IMG/VR virus record: IMGVR_UViG_2744054978_000004
Direction: 5' to 3' (one strand)
Source of the DNA: a virus
Lineage: Duplodnaviria; Heunggongvirae; Uroviricota; Caudoviricetes
DNA length: 8,593 nucleotides
This document shows, piece after piece, positions 2,421-8,537 of the stretch. Each line of letters opens with the position of its first letter. The stretch's first letter is position 1. Both the position numbers and the translations under genes were made by a program. The notes under the pieces were generated by a model that was given only the letters and a program-made list of their open reading frames with translations, had not been told where the DNA came from and did no database searches.

Positions 2421-3119
2421 ATGCAGGATATTCCACAGGAAACACATCATGAGACGACACGCCTCACTCAGTCAGCCCAGGTGGTGCTCTGGGAAATCGA
2501 TCTGACAGAGGTCGGTGGTGAACGTTATTTTTTCTGTAATGAGCAGAACGAAAAAGGTGAGCCGGTTACCTGGCAGGGGCGGCAGTATCAGGCATACCCC
2601 ATTCAGGGGACAGGATTTGAACTGAACGGCAAGGGCAGTGCTGCCCGTCCGACACTGACGGTTTCTAACCTGCACGGCATGGTCACGGGGATGGCGGAAG
2701 ACCTGCAGAGTCTGGTCGGCGGAACGGTGGTCAGGCGTAAGGTTTACGCCCGTTTTCTGGATGCGGTGAACTTCGTCAACGGAAACAGCGACGCCGATCC
2801 GGAGCAGGAGGTGATCAGCCGCTGGCGCATCGAGCAGTGCAGCGAACTGAGTGCGGTCAGTGCCTCCTTTGTGTTGTCCACACCGACGGAAACGGATGGT
2901 GCTGTTTTTCCGGGGCGTATCATGCTGGCCAACACCTGCACCTGGACCTATCGCGGTGATGAGTGCGGTTATAGCGGTCCGGCTGTCGCGGATGAATATG
3001 ACCAGCCGACGTCCGATATCACGAAAGATAAATGCAGCAAATGCCTGAGTGGCTGTAAGTTTCGCAATAACGTCGGCAACTTTGGCGGCTTCCTTTCCAT
3101 TAACAAACTTTCGCAGTAA
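2421..3119 (+). CDS. L: Minor tail (tail tip) protein L (lambda gpL-like), 232 aa, with C-terminal Cys cluster
   Basis: GGAGG at 2411-2415, 5 nt before ATG 2421. Same length as lambda gpL. C-terminal cysteines C173, C182, C205, C208, C212 (nt 2937-3056) fit the Fe-S-binding tail tip protein family. Stop TAA at 3117-3119. Confidence 0.9.
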   Translation: MQDIPQETHHETTRLTQSAQVVLWEIDLTEVGGERYFFCNEQNEKGEPVTWQGRQYQAYPIQGTGFELNGKGSAARPTLTVSNLHGMVTGMAEDLQSLVGGTVVRRKVYARFLDAVNFVNGNSDADPEQEVISRWRIEQCSELSAVSASFVLSTPTETDGAVFPGRIMLANTCTWTYRGDECGYSGPAVADEYDQPTSDITKDKCSKCLSGCKFRNNVGNFGGFLSINKLSQ

Positions 3120-3123
3120 TCCC

Positions 3124-3867
3124 ATGACAGAGACAGAATCAGCGATTCTGGCGCACGCCCGGCGATGTGCGCCAGCGGAGTCGTGCGGCTTCGTGGTGAG
3201 AACGCCGGAGGGGGAAAGATATTTTCCCTGCGTGAATATCTCCGGTGAGCCGGAAGAGTATTTCCGGATGTCGCCGGAGGACTGGCTGCGGGCAGAGATG
3301 CAGGGTGAGATTGTGGCGCTGGTCCACAGCCACCCCGGTGGTCTGCCCTGGCTGAGTGAGGCTGACAGGCGGCTGCAGGTGCAGAGCGATTTGCCTTGGT
3401 GGCTGGTCTGCCGGGGTGAGATTCATAAATTCCGCTGTGTGCCGCATCTTACCGGGCGGCGCTTTGAGCACGGGGTGACGGACTGTTACACGCTGTTCCG
3501 GGATGCTTATCATCTGGCGGGGATTGAGATGCCGGACTTTCATCGTGAGGATGACTGGTGGTGTAACGGCCAGAATCTCTATCTGGATAATCTGGAGGCC
3601 ACAGGGCTGTATCAGGTGCCGTTGTCAGCGGCGCAGCCGGGCGATGTGCTGCTGTGCTGTTTTGGTTCATCGGTGCCGAATCATGCCGCTATTTACTGCG
3701 GCGACGGCGAGCTGCTGCACCATATTCCTGAACAACTGAGTAAACGAGAGAGGTATACCGACAAATGGCAGCGACGCACACACTCCCTCTGGCGTCACCG
3801 GGCATGGCACGCATCTGCCTTTACGGGGATTTACAACGATTTGGCCGCCGCATCGACCTTCGTGTAA
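3124..3867 (+). CDS. K: Tail tip assembly protein K (lambda gpK-like): JAB/MPN (JAMM) metalloprotease domain plus NlpC/P60 (C40) peptidase domain
   Basis: ATG at 3124 is 4 nt after the L stop (coupled arrangement, no obvious SD). JAMM motif H68-S-H70-x7-S78-x2-D81 (nt 3325-3366) with upstream Glu residues; NlpC/P60 catalytic Cys121 in VTDCYTLF (nt 3484-3486) and His187 in NHAAIY (nt 3682-3684). An alternative internal start ATG 3268 (MSPEDW...) would give the 199-aa product that I recall as the classical lambda annotation; 3' end is firm. Confidence 0.82.
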   Translation: MTETESAILAHARRCAPAESCGFVVRTPEGERYFPCVNISGEPEEYFRMSPEDWLRAEMQGEIVALVHSHPGGLPWLSEADRRLQVQSDLPWWLVCRGEIHKFRCVPHLTGRRFEHGVTDCYTLFRDAYHLAGIEMPDFHREDDWWCNGQNLYLDNLEATGLYQVPLSAAQPGDVLLCCFGSSVPNHAAIYCGDGELLHHIPEQLSKRERYTDKWQRRTHSLWRHRAWHASAFTGIYNDLAAASTFV

Positions 3868-4412
3868 AAACGGGGTCTGAAGCCATCCGGGCGCTGTCCA
3901 CACAGGTCCCGGCGTTTCGTCAGAAACTGAATGACGGCTGGTATCAGGTGCGCATTGCCGGGCGTGATGCAGGTGAAACCGAATTATCTGCCCGTCTTAA
4001 TGAGCCGCTGGCAAATGGTGCCGTGATCCATATCGTGCCGCGTCTGGCGGGAGCTAAAAGTGGCGGTGTATTTCAGGTGGTGCTGGGGGCGGCGTTGATT
4101 GCGGTGGCATGGTGGAACCCTGTGGGCTGGCTGGGTGCCGCGGCTGTATCGGGCATGTATGCGGCAGGGGCCAGTATGATCCTGGGCGGTGTGGCGCAGA
4201 TGCTGGCACCGAAAGCCAGGACGCCCACGGCAGCCAGTACAGATAACGGCAAACAGAACACCTATTTCTCCTCACTGGATAACATGGTTGCTCAGGGCAA
4301 TGTTTTGCCTGTTCTGTACGGTGAAATGCGTGTGGGGTCGCGGGTGGTTTCTCAGGAGATCAGCACGGCAGACGAAGGGGACGGTGGTCTGGTTGTGGTG
4401 ATTGGTCGCTGA
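3765..4412 (+). CDS. I: Tail tip assembly protein I (lambda gpI-like), 215 aa
   Basis: N-terminus MAATHTLPLASPGMARICLYGDLQRFGRRIDLRVKTG and C-terminus NGKQNTYFSSLDNMVAQGNVLPVLYGEMRVGSRVVSQEISTADEGDGG match what I recall of lambda gpI. Overlaps the 3' end of K by 103 nt in a different frame. Contains a Gly/Ala-rich hydrophobic central segment. GAGAGAGG at 3746-3753 is a possible SD. Stop TGA at 4410-4412. Confidence 0.85.
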   Translation: MAATHTLPLASPGMARICLYGDLQRFGRRIDLRVKTGSEAIRALSTQVPAFRQKLNDGWYQVRIAGRDAGETELSARLNEPLANGAVIHIVPRLAGAKSGGVFQVVLGAALIAVAWWNPVGWLGAAAVSGMYAAGASMILGGVAQMLAPKARTPTAASTDNGKQNTYFSSLDNMVAQGNVLPVLYGEMRVGSRVVSQEISTADEGDGGLVVVIGR

Positions 4413-4469: not shown

Positions 4470-7871
<3,402 letters not shown>

Positions 7872-7937: not shown

Positions 7938-8537
7938 ATGCGTAAACTTTATGCCGCCATTTTGTCCGCAGCCATTTGTCTGGCCGTATCCGGTGCGCCT
8001 GCATGGGCGTCTGAACATCAGTCCACGCTGAGCGCGGGGTATCTTCATGTCTCGACGAACGTTCCCGGCAGCGATGATCTGAACGGGATTAACGTGAAAT
8101 ACCGTTATGAGTTTACGGACACACTGGGGATGGTGACGTCTTTCAGCTATGCAGGAGACAAGAATCGCCAGCTTACCCGTTACAGCGATACCCGCTGGCA
8201 TGAAGATTCCGTGCGTAACCGCTGGTTCAGCGTGATGGCGGGGCCGTCTGTACGCGTGAATGAATGGTTCAGCGCGTATGCGATGGCGGGTGTGTCTTAC
8301 AGCCGTGTGTCGACTTTCTCCGGGGATTATCTCCGCGTAACTGACAACAAGGGGAAAACGCACGATGTGCTGACCGGAAGTGATGACGGTCGCCACAGCA
8401 ACACGTCTCTGGCGTGGGGAGCTGGCGTGCAGTTTAACCCGACCGAATCCGTGGCCATTGATATTGCTTATGAAGGCTCCGGCAGTGGCGACTGGCGCAC
8501 TGACGGTTTCATCGTGGGTGTCGGTTATAAGTTCTGA
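7938..8537 (+). CDS. lom: Lom-like outer membrane beta-barrel protein (Ail/Lom/PagC/OmpX family), 199 aa, with N-terminal signal peptide
   Basis: GAGAGG at 7927-7932 before ATG 7938. Predicted signal peptide [24 protein letters not shown], cleaved after AWA. Family motifs [23 protein letters not shown] and the C-terminal [26 protein letters not shown] ending in the outer-membrane-protein terminal aromatic residue. Positioned immediately after J, as lom is in lambda. Confidence 0.87.

What the first reader, a model, noticed from the sequence alone, without database searches (positions are those of the whole stretch)
3124..3867. gpK-like protein carries both a JAMM/MPN metalloprotease motif and an NlpC/P60 cysteine-peptidase triad; the start codon is ambiguous
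The translation shows a textbook JAMM signature (HSHPGGLPWLSEAD = H-x-H-x7-S-x2-D) followed by an NlpC/P60-type Cys (VTDCYTLF) and His (NHAAIY, ELLHH). The reading frame is open upstream of the internal ATG at 3268 (the lambda-style 199-aa start, as I recall it) back to an ATG at 3124, 4 nt after the L stop. Only the longer form includes the N-terminal strand and acidic residues (E19, E29, E31) that a complete JAB fold would need. If the long form is real, 199-aa annotations of this family are N-terminally truncated and the protein is a two-protease enzyme inside the tail tip assembly pathway.
Basis: partly seen in the sequence, partly recalled or inferred. Interest (0 to 1): 0.5.

Follow-up and report, generated by a model that had tools for sequence, protein, structure and literature searches.

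The report
Lambda tail protein K, full-length form
This is the ordinary tail-assembly gene K of a lambda-like phage, a 247-residue protein with two protease domains that has been described since 2003-2006; the shorter 199-residue version in the lambda reference genome traces to one G missing from the 1982 sequence.

Summary
Window 3124-3867 encodes a 247-aa homologue of lambda gpK. It has an N-terminal JAMM/MPN+ metalloprotease domain (E19, H68-S69-H70, S78, D81) and a C-terminal NlpC/P60 cysteine peptidase domain (C121, H187, H199/H200).

The long start at 3124 is the real one:
- Codons 1-48 carry the catalytic Glu and the first helix and two strands of the JAB fold.
- They evolve under the same purifying selection as the rest of the gene.
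- They align with homologues in about 1,700 phage records, down to 27% identity.
- Met49 is Ile in close relatives.

The architecture is not new. It appears in Ambroggio 2003 and Iyer/Burroughs/Aravind 2006, in Pfam, and in NCBI's "C40 family peptidase" naming. Most databases already aa.

What I add is the cause of the 199-aa call. J02459/NC_001416 lacks one G at about 14266/14267, ten bases upstream of the annotated K ATG, which splits the ORF. Every independently sequenced lambda has the G. So do 14 stray lambda contigs in unrelated bacterial assemblies that otherwise match the reference exactly.

The substrate is inferred, not shown: probably removal of the ubiquitin-like domain of gpI. Interest is low.

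The parts
3124..3867 (+). Gene K, full-length CDS (247 aa plus stop): tail-tip assembly protein with two peptidase domains
   Evidence: ORF and translation. It is 96.8% identical to the uninterrupted K ORF of resequenced lambda imm21 (H42). Clusters of 247-aa proteins with thousands of members dominate the databases. Synteny is M-L-K-I-J.
3124..3267 (+). The disputed 48 N-terminal codons: coding, first third of the JAB/MPN domain
   Evidence: On their own they hit Prok-JAB positions 3-41 (E=3.4e-5) and phrog_30, phrog_2635 and phrog_7305. dN/dS is 0.06-0.13. tblastn alignments in 1,723 phage records start at residues 1-8. Model pLDDT is 89-96 with helix 3-14 and strands 21-27 and 30-36.
3133..3438 (+). 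JAMM/MPN+ (Prok-JAB, PF14464) metalloprotease domain, residues 4-105
   Evidence: Pfam 53.5 bits against a cut-off of 25. PDB 2kks JAB protein aligns with residues 7-109. Foldseek finds PfJAMM1-SAMP2 (5lda, TM-score normalised to the target 0.65), Rpn11 and AMSH. There is a sub-threshold NCBIfam desampylase hit over residues 3-115, lost in the 199-aa form.
3178..3180 (+). E19 codon (GAG): catalytic glutamate of the JAMM motif, absent from the 199-aa form
   Evidence: Invariant in 15 K proteins down to 27% identity. It aligns with the Glu of 'PNEACG' in PDB 2kks. The JAMM motif is defined as E-x(n)-H-S/T-H-x7-S-x2-D (PMC300881, abstract).
3325..3366 (+). H68-S69-H70-x7-S78-x2-D81: zinc-binding part of the JAMM motif
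   Evidence: Read from the sequence. H68, S69, H70, S78 and D81 are all invariant.
3454..3795 (+). NlpC/P60 (PF00877) papain-like cysteine peptidase domain, residues 111-224
   Evidence: Pfam 49.2 bits against a cut-off of 23, covering the full profile 1-105. Foldseek finds MepS/Spr, CwlO, LytE and other NlpC/P60 structures (E about 1e-4, probability 1.0).
3484..3486 (+). C121 codon (TGT): predicted nucleophile, at the start of helix 121-131
   Evidence: D120 and C121 are invariant. The helix position comes from the model.
3682..3684 (+). H187 codon: predicted catalytic histidine of the NlpC/P60 domain
   Evidence: Invariant.
3718..3723 (+). H199-H200 codons: predicted third member of the triad
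   Evidence: H200 is invariant and H199 at least 90% conserved.
3268..3270 (+). Internal ATG (Met49), equivalent to the annotated lambda K start 14276; not the main start
   Evidence: This codon is ATC or ATT (Ile) in Stx-type lambdoid phages and in Salmonella and Yersinia prophages.
3252..3258 (+). GGAAGAG: weakened counterpart of lambda's GGAGGCG. Base 3258 corresponds to the G missing from J02459/NC_001416.
   Evidence: DNA alignment. Duplex energy with the anti-Shine-Dalgarno sequence is -3.5 kcal/mol here and -9.5 in lambda.
3117..3123 (+). L stop codon (TAA 3117-3119) plus a 4-nt spacer before the K ATG: probable translational coupling, with no Shine-Dalgarno sequence
   Evidence: Sequence. 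No anti-SD pairing (dG +0.7) in any lambda-clade relative. The K start lies at most 50 nt from the L stop, and usually within about 10 nt, in 15 diverse phages.
3765..3867 (+). 103-nt overlap of K (3' end) with gene I (3765-4412, another frame)
   Evidence: The ATG at -103 and the upstream GAGG are conserved in 10 lambdoid loci. The same 103-nt overlap is called in Salmonella, Yersinia, Edwardsiella and Citrobacter prophages.

Best explanation
Window 3124-3867 is gene K of a lambda-like siphophage. It is translated from the ATG at 3124, 4 nt after the stop codon of gene L, probably by translational coupling because there is no Shine-Dalgarno sequence. The product has 247 residues.

SHOWN here:
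- Residues 1-110 form a complete JAMM/MPN+ zinc-metalloprotease domain (E19; H68, H70 and D81 as metal ligands; S78).
- Residues 111-224 form an NlpC/P60 papain-like cysteine peptidase domain (C121, H187, H199/H200).
- Every one of these residues is invariant or nearly so in phages down to 27% identity, so both active sites are under selection.
- The 199-aa 'lambda-style' protein is an annotation artefact. The 1982 lambda reference (J02459/NC_001416) lacks one G at about 14266/14267, which puts the first 45 codons in another frame. Gene callers that reward a Shine-Dalgarno motif also pick the internal ATG, because GGAGG lies 11 nt upstream of it in lambda.

FROM THE LITERATURE:
- gpK is required for tail assembly but was not found in virions by mass spectrometry.

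INFERRED, not shown:
- K acts catalytically during assembly of the tail tip.
- Its JAB domain cuts the neighbouring, overlapping gene product gpI just after the conserved G-A-K-x-G-G that ends gpI's ubiquitin-like domain. This would free the hydrophobic C-terminal part that becomes the plug of the tail tip. I put this at about 35%.
- The substrate of the NlpC/P60 domain is unknown.
For: Domains: Pfam, PDB sequence match to JAB protein 2kks over residues 7-109, AlphaFold2 model with pLDDT 85.7, and Foldseek matches to both NlpC/P60 enzymes and JAMM deubiquitinase-like enzymes.

Catalytic residues are invariant in 15 phages.

Long start:
- The profile is complete only with residues 1-48.
- dN/dS is 0.06-0.13 for codons 2-48 and 0.12 for the rest.
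- Of 1,762 phage records with a tblastn match, 1,723 cover at least 80% of the query, and alignments start at residues 1-8.
- The K start lies at most 50 nt from the L stop (usually within about 10 nt) in lambdoid, T1-like, Pseudomonas, Vibrio, Burkholderia and Rhizobium phages.
- Met49 is Ile in close relatives.

Reference error:
- The alignment shows NC_001416 alone lacking the G. With the G, lambda imm434 reads through 247 aa from ATG 14132.
- Only 4 of 122 phage records carry the form without the G, and none of 7,256 places in 3,928 E. coli genomes does.
- The 33-mer without the G has 0 hits in three large collections, whereas the 34-mer with the G has at least 120, 24 and at least 120.
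- 14 stray lambda contigs in assemblies of unrelated bacteria are identical to NC_001416 over up to 8,000 nt once that one G is removed.

Role:
- Iyer et al. 2006 described TAPK as JAB plus NlpC/P60 next to the ubiquitin-like TAPI, and predicted cleavage.
- gpK was not detected in virions by mass spectrometry.
- gpI is resolved only from residue 101 or 135 onward in virion structures.
- The GAKxGG motif ends at residue 101 and is conserved.
Against: There is no direct protein evidence here for the N-terminus of gpK: no N-terminal sequencing and no ribosome profiling.

The long start has no Shine-Dalgarno sequence in the lambda clade. In lambda itself the internal ATG has GGAGG 11 nt upstream, so a minor internally initiated isoform cannot be excluded there.

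Two further GenBank records carry the reference form without the G: OR474059, flagged UNVERIFIED, and OR974322, which uses reference coordinates. I could not establish whether they are independent of the reference.

Cleavage of gpI by gpK has never been shown. The unresolved N-terminus of gpI may simply be flexible, and the virion mass spectrometry found only one gpI peptide.
Confidence: 0.88

Rival explanations
1. Dual initiation. Both the 247-aa protein and an internally initiated 199-aa protein, consisting of the NlpC/P60 domain plus a partial JAB domain, are made from nested in-frame starts, as for lambda C/Nu3 or S/S'.
For: In lambda and PhiR49_2 a GGAGG lies 11 nt upstream of the internal ATG (dG -9.5 kcal/mol), whereas the long start has no Shine-Dalgarno sequence. 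Automated gene callers often choose the internal start: the 199-aa clusters P0056, P0058, P0064 and P0078 have thousands of members.
Against: Codon 49 is Ile (ATC or ATT) in the Stx-phage group, which still has the GGAGG, and in Salmonella and Yersinia relatives. The motif therefore encodes the conserved Pro-Glu-Ala rather than a ribosome site. In this window the motif is degraded to GGAAGAG (dG -3.5). The 11-nt spacing is longer than optimal. A fragment lacking the first helix, two strands and the catalytic Glu of the JAB fold is unlikely to fold.
Confidence: 0.08
2. Only the 199-aa protein is real. The 144 nt between L and the internal ATG are an untranslated spacer, as in the lambda reference annotation.
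For: The NC_001416 and J02459 annotation, copied into OM418626 with a ribosome-binding-site feature.
Against: The segment evolves as coding sequence, with dN/dS of about 0.1 and changes concentrated at third codon positions. It encodes the invariant E19 and matches JAB profiles on its own. It is conserved as protein down to 27% identity. The reference annotation follows from a missing base. A 148-nt untranslated gap would be unique in the tightly packed lambda late operon.
Confidence: 0.01
3. The missing G is real in the strain Sanger sequenced (lambda cI857 ind1 Sam7). That strain would make K in two pieces, by ribosomal frameshifting, or as a truncated but sufficient protein.
For: Four GenBank records carry the form without the G. 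Lambda does use programmed frameshifting in the same operon, at G-T (cited within).
Against: Two of the four are the same sequence (J02459 and NC_001416). One is flagged UNVERIFIED and one uses reference coordinates. Fourteen independent stray lambda contigs that match the reference perfectly over as much as 8 kb all have the G. So do DE3, lambda imm21, lambda imm434, KT232076 and PV340536. No slippery sequence is evident at GGAGGCTAT.
Confidence: 0.03
4. One or both peptidase domains are inactive scaffolds, so K acts as a chaperone. Alternatively, the NlpC/P60 domain is a virion-borne peptidoglycan hydrolase used during DNA injection.
For: The NlpC/P60 structural neighbours are cell-wall endopeptidases such as MepS, CwlO and LytE. 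The lambda enzyme that breaches the cell wall is unidentified. No activity of gpK has been reported in the papers I could read.
Against: All catalytic residues of both domains are invariant over wide divergence, which argues against dead domains. gpK was not detected in virions by mass spectrometry and has not been seen in any cryo-EM map, which argues against a role at injection.
Confidence: 0.1

Closest known systems
Bacteriophage lambda gpK, tail tip assembly protein K (TAPK of Iyer, Burroughs and Aravind 2006; UniProt and GenBank 199-aa entry from J02459)
   Same: It is the same gene. The product is about 95-97% identical to the K ORF of resequenced lambda strains, in the same M-L-K-I-J order with the same 103-nt K/I overlap. 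The domain pair is the same.
   Different: The canonical reference entry has 199 aa because one G is missing from the reference sequence. This window, like all resequenced lambdas, encodes 247 aa. The window's L-K spacer is 4 nt against 5 nt in lambda, and its internal GGAGG is degraded to GGAAGAG.
JAMM/MPN+ isopeptidases that cut after the C-terminal Gly-Gly of ubiquitin-like proteins: archaeal desampylases HvJAMM1 and PfJAMM1, proteasome Rpn11, CSN5, AMSH, and Deinococcus DRJAMM (which cleaves MoaD-MoaE)
   Same: The motif E...HSH-x7-S-x2-D is the same. The predicted fold matches PfJAMM1 bound to SAMP2 (5lda, TM-score normalised to the target 0.65). There is a sub-threshold match to the desampylase family. 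The gene is next to a ubiquitin-like protein, gpI, whose domain ends in GAKxGG.
   Different: No E1 or E2 partners are present. The presumed substrate would be a linear fusion within gpI rather than an isopeptide conjugate. The domain is fused to a second peptidase. Activity is untested.
NlpC/P60 (MEROPS C40) peptidases such as E. coli MepS/Spr and Bacillus LytE and CwlO
   Same: Papain-like fold with a Cys-His-His triad and the nucleophile at the start of a helix. Pfam and Foldseek matches.
   Different: There is no signal peptide or cell-wall-binding domain. The protein is made in the cytoplasm during tail assembly and is absent from virions, so peptidoglycan is an unlikely substrate. Sequence identity is only 16-22%.

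Membership tests
JAMM/MPN+ metalloproteases (Pfam PF14464 Prok-JAB) | Motif E-x(n)-H-S/T-H-x7-S-x2-D | tested here: met
   E19, H68-S69-H70, seven residues, S78, two residues, D81. All are invariant in 15 homologues. The motif definition is from PMC300881.
JAMM/MPN+ metalloproteases (Pfam PF14464 Prok-JAB) | Profile match above the curated threshold over the whole domain | tested here: met
   53.5 bits against a cut-off of 25, profile positions 4-113 of 114, with the 247-aa form. The 199-aa form fails at 23.9 bits.
JAMM/MPN+ metalloproteases (Pfam PF14464 Prok-JAB) | MPN fold | tested here: met
   A confident AlphaFold2 model matches PfJAMM1, Rpn11 and AMSH by Foldseek. This is a prediction, not a solved structure.
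JAMM/MPN+ metalloproteases (Pfam PF14464 Prok-JAB) | Zinc binding and peptidase or isopeptidase activity | not testable with these tools
   Needs biochemistry. No report was found in the papers searched.
NlpC/P60 (Pfam PF00877, MEROPS C40) | Profile match above threshold and papain-like fold | tested here: met
   49.2 bits against a cut-off of 23, full profile 1-105. Foldseek matches MepS, CwlO and LytE with probability 1.0.
NlpC/P60 (Pfam PF00877, MEROPS C40) | Catalytic Cys at a helix N-terminus, plus His and a third polar residue | tested here: met
   C121 lies at the start of helix 121-131. C121, H187 and H200 are invariant and H199 is at least 90% conserved.
NlpC/P60 (Pfam PF00877, MEROPS C40) | Hydrolysis of gamma-D-Glu-meso-DAP or a related amide bond | not testable with these tools
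   Needs biochemistry.
Lambda gpK / TAPK tail-tip assembly proteins | JAB and NlpC/P60 in one polypeptide of about 245-250 aa, encoded between the gpL-like and gpI-like genes and upstream of the gpJ-like gene | tested here: met
   The neighbours are Phage_min_tail (M), Phage_tail_L (L), K, Lambda_tail_I (I) and J. The same order and size are found in 15 phages.
Lambda gpK / TAPK tail-tip assembly proteins | Required for tail assembly but absent from the virion | not testable with these tools
   Taken from the literature on lambda (PMC10721106; PMC12617516). Not tested for this phage.

The most novel reading that the evidence does not exclude
gpK and gpI form a phage-encoded protease and ubiquitin-like protein pair that acts as an assembly switch. 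The JAB domain of K would cut gpI right after the conserved G-A-K-x-G-G (gpI residues 96-101; window 4050-4067). This would discard the ubiquitin-like domain and release the hydrophobic C-terminal half that plugs the tail tip. The NlpC/P60 domain would carry out a second, still unassigned cleavage, for example gpH to gpH*, whose protease is unknown. The first half was predicted in 2006 but I found no experimental test of it. It fits the fact that virion structures resolve gpI only from residue 101 or 135 onward.
Probability: 0.3. Interest if true: 0.5.

Novelty: already known. Interest (0 to 1): 0.22.

Why it matters
For this window, nothing new: it is a normal K gene.

The practical value is curatorial. 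The most-used phage reference genome (NC_001416/J02459), and the protein entries derived from it, give a K protein that lacks the first 48 residues, including the catalytic glutamate of its metalloprotease domain. The cause is one missing base.

Work that starts from that entry misses the JAB domain. For example, Goulet et al. 2020 found only 'a peptidase domain, residues 52-182 of 199' by HHpred. The cryo-EM papers I read treat gpK as an unplaced or non-structural protein, and none discusses the predicted K-I protease-substrate relation.

Correcting the start makes that 2006 prediction easier to test with the right construct.

Tried and rejected
1. A longer start at GTG 3049 (272 aa, listed). 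Rejected: it overlaps the end of L, homologues do not align upstream of Met1, and the L-K spacer varies between 4, 5, 6 and 10 nt among close relatives, so an upstream extension would change frame.
2. Prior publication of the reference error. Six literature searches and several papers gave no explicit statement. Feiss et al. [quoted passage not shown] Casjens & Hendrix 2015, Anantharaman & Aravind 2003 and the lambda ribosome-profiling paper were not held, so prior knowledge cannot be excluded.
3. LC730321 (48,503 bp) as a clean resequencing of the reference strain. Rejected: it differs at 15 sites, including the Ur-lambda stf base. The stray lambda contigs in other assemblies were the better control.
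4. Virion mass spectrometry to ask whether gpI is cleaved. Uninformative: one peptide, 9.9% coverage.
5. An alternative gene I start at Met14 (3804), suggested because the Pfam domain begins there. Rejected: the ATG at 3765 and its upstream GAGG are conserved in 10 loci, while Met14 is Leu or Val elsewhere.
6. Minus-strand ORFs inside 3124-3867 were not pursued. They have no support and lie opposite a strongly conserved coding frame.

Full report
WHAT THE WINDOW IS

The 8.6-kb window is the tail-tip part of a lambda-like late operon:
- H, 5'-truncated (..2082)
- M (2082-2411)
- L (2421-3119)
- K (3124-3867)
- I (3765-4412)
- J (4473-7871)
- lom (7938-8537)

These assignments come, with Pfam confirming M, L and I. 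At the DNA level the K region is 98.4% identical to Escherichia phage PhiR49_2 and about 95% identical to lambda.

CHECK OF THE OBSERVATION

- The L stop is at 3117-3119.
- An ATG at 3124 opens a 247-codon frame that ends at 3865-3867.
- An internal ATG lies at 3268 (Met49).
- The JAMM string is H68-S69-H70-x7-S78-x2-D81.
- The NlpC/P60 residues are C121, H187 and H199/H200.

Pfam gives Prok-JAB at 53.5 bits (E=2.7e-14) and NLPC_P60 at 49.2 bits (E=5.8e-13), both well above their cut-offs. Chance is excluded.

It aligns with the catalytic Glu of the solved JAB protein 2kks.

WHICH START

Five independent lines favour 3124.

1. Profile completeness. The long form covers Prok-JAB positions 4-113 of 114. 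The 199-aa form covers only 63-113 and drops below threshold (23.9 against 25 bits). The 48 extra residues alone hit positions 3-41. The sub-threshold match to the desampylase family also disappears in the short form.

2. Structure. An AlphaFold2 model (pLDDT 85.7, pTM 0.81) places residues 1-48 as helix 3-14 and strands 21-27 and 30-36, with pLDDT 89-96. The model matches PfJAMM1-SAMP2, Rpn11 and AMSH for the first half. It matches MepS, CwlO and LytE for the second half.

3. Evolution. For codons 2-48 against the Stx-phage group, dN/dS is 0.06-0.13, the same as for the rest of the gene (0.12). Third positions vary at 40 of 47 codons, against 22 and 21 for positions 1 and 2. There are no frame-breaking indels.

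4. Breadth. tblastn finds the protein in 1,762 phage records. Of these, 1,723 cover at least 80% of the query, with alignments starting at residues 1-8 down to 27% identity. In 15 phages the K start lies close to the L stop, usually within about 10 nt and at most 50 nt. These include lambdoid, T1-like, Dhillonvirus, Pseudomonas, Vibrio, Burkholderia, Rhizobium and Mannheimia phages. Across them E19, G22, N38, H68, S69, H70, S78, D81, D120, C121, H187 and H200 are invariant.

5. The internal Met is not conserved. Codon 49 is ATC or ATT in Stx-type phages that are 87% identical, and Ile in Salmonella and Yersinia prophages.

The long start has no Shine-Dalgarno sequence in the lambda clade, which fits coupling to termination of L 4-10 nt upstream. 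More distant phages do have one.

WHY LAMBDA IS ANNOTATED AS 199 aa

Translating NC_001416 upstream of its K start in the K frame gives a stop codon.

The DNA alignment shows why. The reference reads GAGCCGGAGGC-TATTTCC where lambda imm434 and every other relative read GAGCCGGAGGCGTATTTCC. In the reference, an ATG at 14133 opens MTQTESAILAHARRCAPAESCGFVVSTPEGERYFPCVNISGEPEA, and then the frame is lost. With the G, the ORF runs for 247 aa.

The form without the G is confined to a handful of records:
- It occurs in 4 of 122 phage records: J02459, its RefSeq copy, one UNVERIFIED engineered strain, and one record that uses reference coordinates.
- It occurs in none of 7,256 places in 3,928 complete E. 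coli genomes.
- It has no exact match in JGI metagenomes, 185,579 species-representative genomes, or IMG/VR. The version with the G has at least 120, 24 and at least 120 matches.

The most telling control came unplanned. Fourteen of the 24 genome hits are low-coverage lambda contigs inside assemblies of unrelated bacteria. The hosts include Neobacillus, Psychrobacter, two Pseudomonas, Oceanobacillus, Chromatium, Shewanella, Paenibacillus and Bradyrhizobium, and some contigs are about 48.4-48.5 kb long. I take these to be laboratory lambda DNA. Each is identical to NC_001416 over up to 8,000 nt (span 7990-20409) once that single G is removed.

So DNA of the reference lineage has the G, and the 1982 sequence almost certainly omitted it.

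The annotation then persisted, even in the 2022 resequenced hybrids. Gene callers reinforce it by choosing the internal ATG, because GGAGG lies 11 nt upstream. The 199-aa clusters hold thousands of members. In the present window that motif is GGAAGAG.

WHAT IS ALREADY KNOWN

- The JAMM motif of lambda K was listed by Ambroggio et al. 2003.
- The JAB plus NlpC/P60 architecture, the ubiquitin-like fold of gpI, and the proposal that K processes I at the C-terminal glycine are in Iyer, Burroughs and Aravind 2006, which cites Anantharaman and Aravind 2003.
- NCBI names the protein 'C40 family peptidase', and most database entries have 247 aa.

The finding is therefore a correct re-derivation of known facts. 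The short annotation has had consequences: an HHpred survey that used the 199-aa entry saw only one peptidase domain.

HOW IT PROBABLY WORKS

Shown: two intact, conserved active sites in one 247-aa protein, encoded between L and I and overlapping I by a conserved 103 nt.

From the literature: gpK is needed for tail assembly, was not detected in virions by mass spectrometry, and is not seen in cryo-EM maps.

Inferred: K is a processing enzyme of the tail-tip initiator. The best candidate substrate is gpI.
- Its N-terminal ubiquitin-like domain (Pfam Lambda_tail_I, residues 14-97) ends in a conserved P-x-x-x-G-A-K-x-G-G. A hydrophobic segment follows directly.
- Virion structures resolve gpI only from residue 101 or 134/135.
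- JAMM enzymes characteristically cut after such Gly-Gly tails.

This agrees with cleavage but does not prove it. The N-terminus could simply be disordered, and the one published mass-spectrometry table has a single gpI peptide. The substrate of the NlpC/P60 domain is open. The unexplained gpH to gpH* cleavage is one possibility.

RIVALS

- A minor internally initiated isoform in lambda itself cannot be excluded, but it is not conserved.
- A real frameshift in the sequenced strain is very unlikely given the stray-contig evidence.
- Dead domains are unlikely given the invariant catalytic residues.
- A role as a virion cell-wall hydrolase conflicts with the protein's absence from virions.

VERDICT

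The useful by-product is the cause of the truncated reference annotation: a single missing G at about 14266/14267 of J02459/NC_001416. I could not find this stated in the papers available to me.

Noticed in passing
L024 (NC_001416.1) 14261-14270; window equivalent 3252-3261, base 3258: The lambda reference genome lacks one G (GGAGGC-TAT against GGAGGCGTAT), which splits gene K. All other lambda sequences have the G, as do 14 stray lambda contigs that otherwise match the reference exactly.
   Followed up: yes
window 3765-3867; L002-L006 and L010-L013 equivalents: Genes K and I overlap by exactly 103 nt in different frames in all 10 lambdoid loci, with a conserved ATG and an upstream GAGG. Some recent records (PV340570, PV340536) instead start I at the K stop, which would remove the first strands of its ubiquitin-like domain.
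   Followed up: partly
window 4050-4067 (gpI residues 96-101, G-A-K-S-G-G): The ubiquitin-like domain of gpI ends in a Gly-Gly motif conserved down to about 30% identity. A hydrophobic segment follows immediately. One cryo-EM study resolves gpI from residue 101 onward, which is the boundary expected if a JAMM protease cut there.
   Followed up: partly
L147, L150-L153, L155, L157, L162-L164 and others (genome-contig hits): Near-complete lambda genomes (about 48.4-48.5 kb, coverage about 1x) sit in published assemblies of Pseudomonas, Shewanella, Neobacillus, Oceanobacillus, Chromatium and other genera. I interpret these as laboratory lambda DNA contamination.
   Followed up: partly
L025 (LC730321.1) against L024: 'Lambda_AGU' differs from the reference at 15 sites. 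These include +C at 20836, the position of the known stf frameshift that separates laboratory lambda from Ur-lambda, and -G at 139.
   Followed up: no
window 3124-3351 (K residues 1-76): PHROGs holds separate families for pieces of K: phrog_7305 (76 aa, 'unknown function'), which matches K residues 1-76; phrog_2635, which matches the N-terminal half; and phrog_2552, which matches the C-terminal half. This suggests that split or frameshifted K genes are annotated in many phage genomes.
   Followed up: no
proteins P0014, P0024, P0031, P0036 and P0091: Some database entries fuse K with L (PF05100) or with I (PF06805) in one 310-430-aa protein. These could be assembly or frameshift errors, or the natural fusions mentioned by Iyer et al. 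2006.
   Followed up: no
window 3117-3124 and relatives (alignment A1): The spacer between the L stop and the K ATG varies (4, 5, 6 and 10 nt) among phages that are otherwise more than 83% identical. It never contains a Shine-Dalgarno sequence, which suggests termination-reinitiation coupling.
   Followed up: partly
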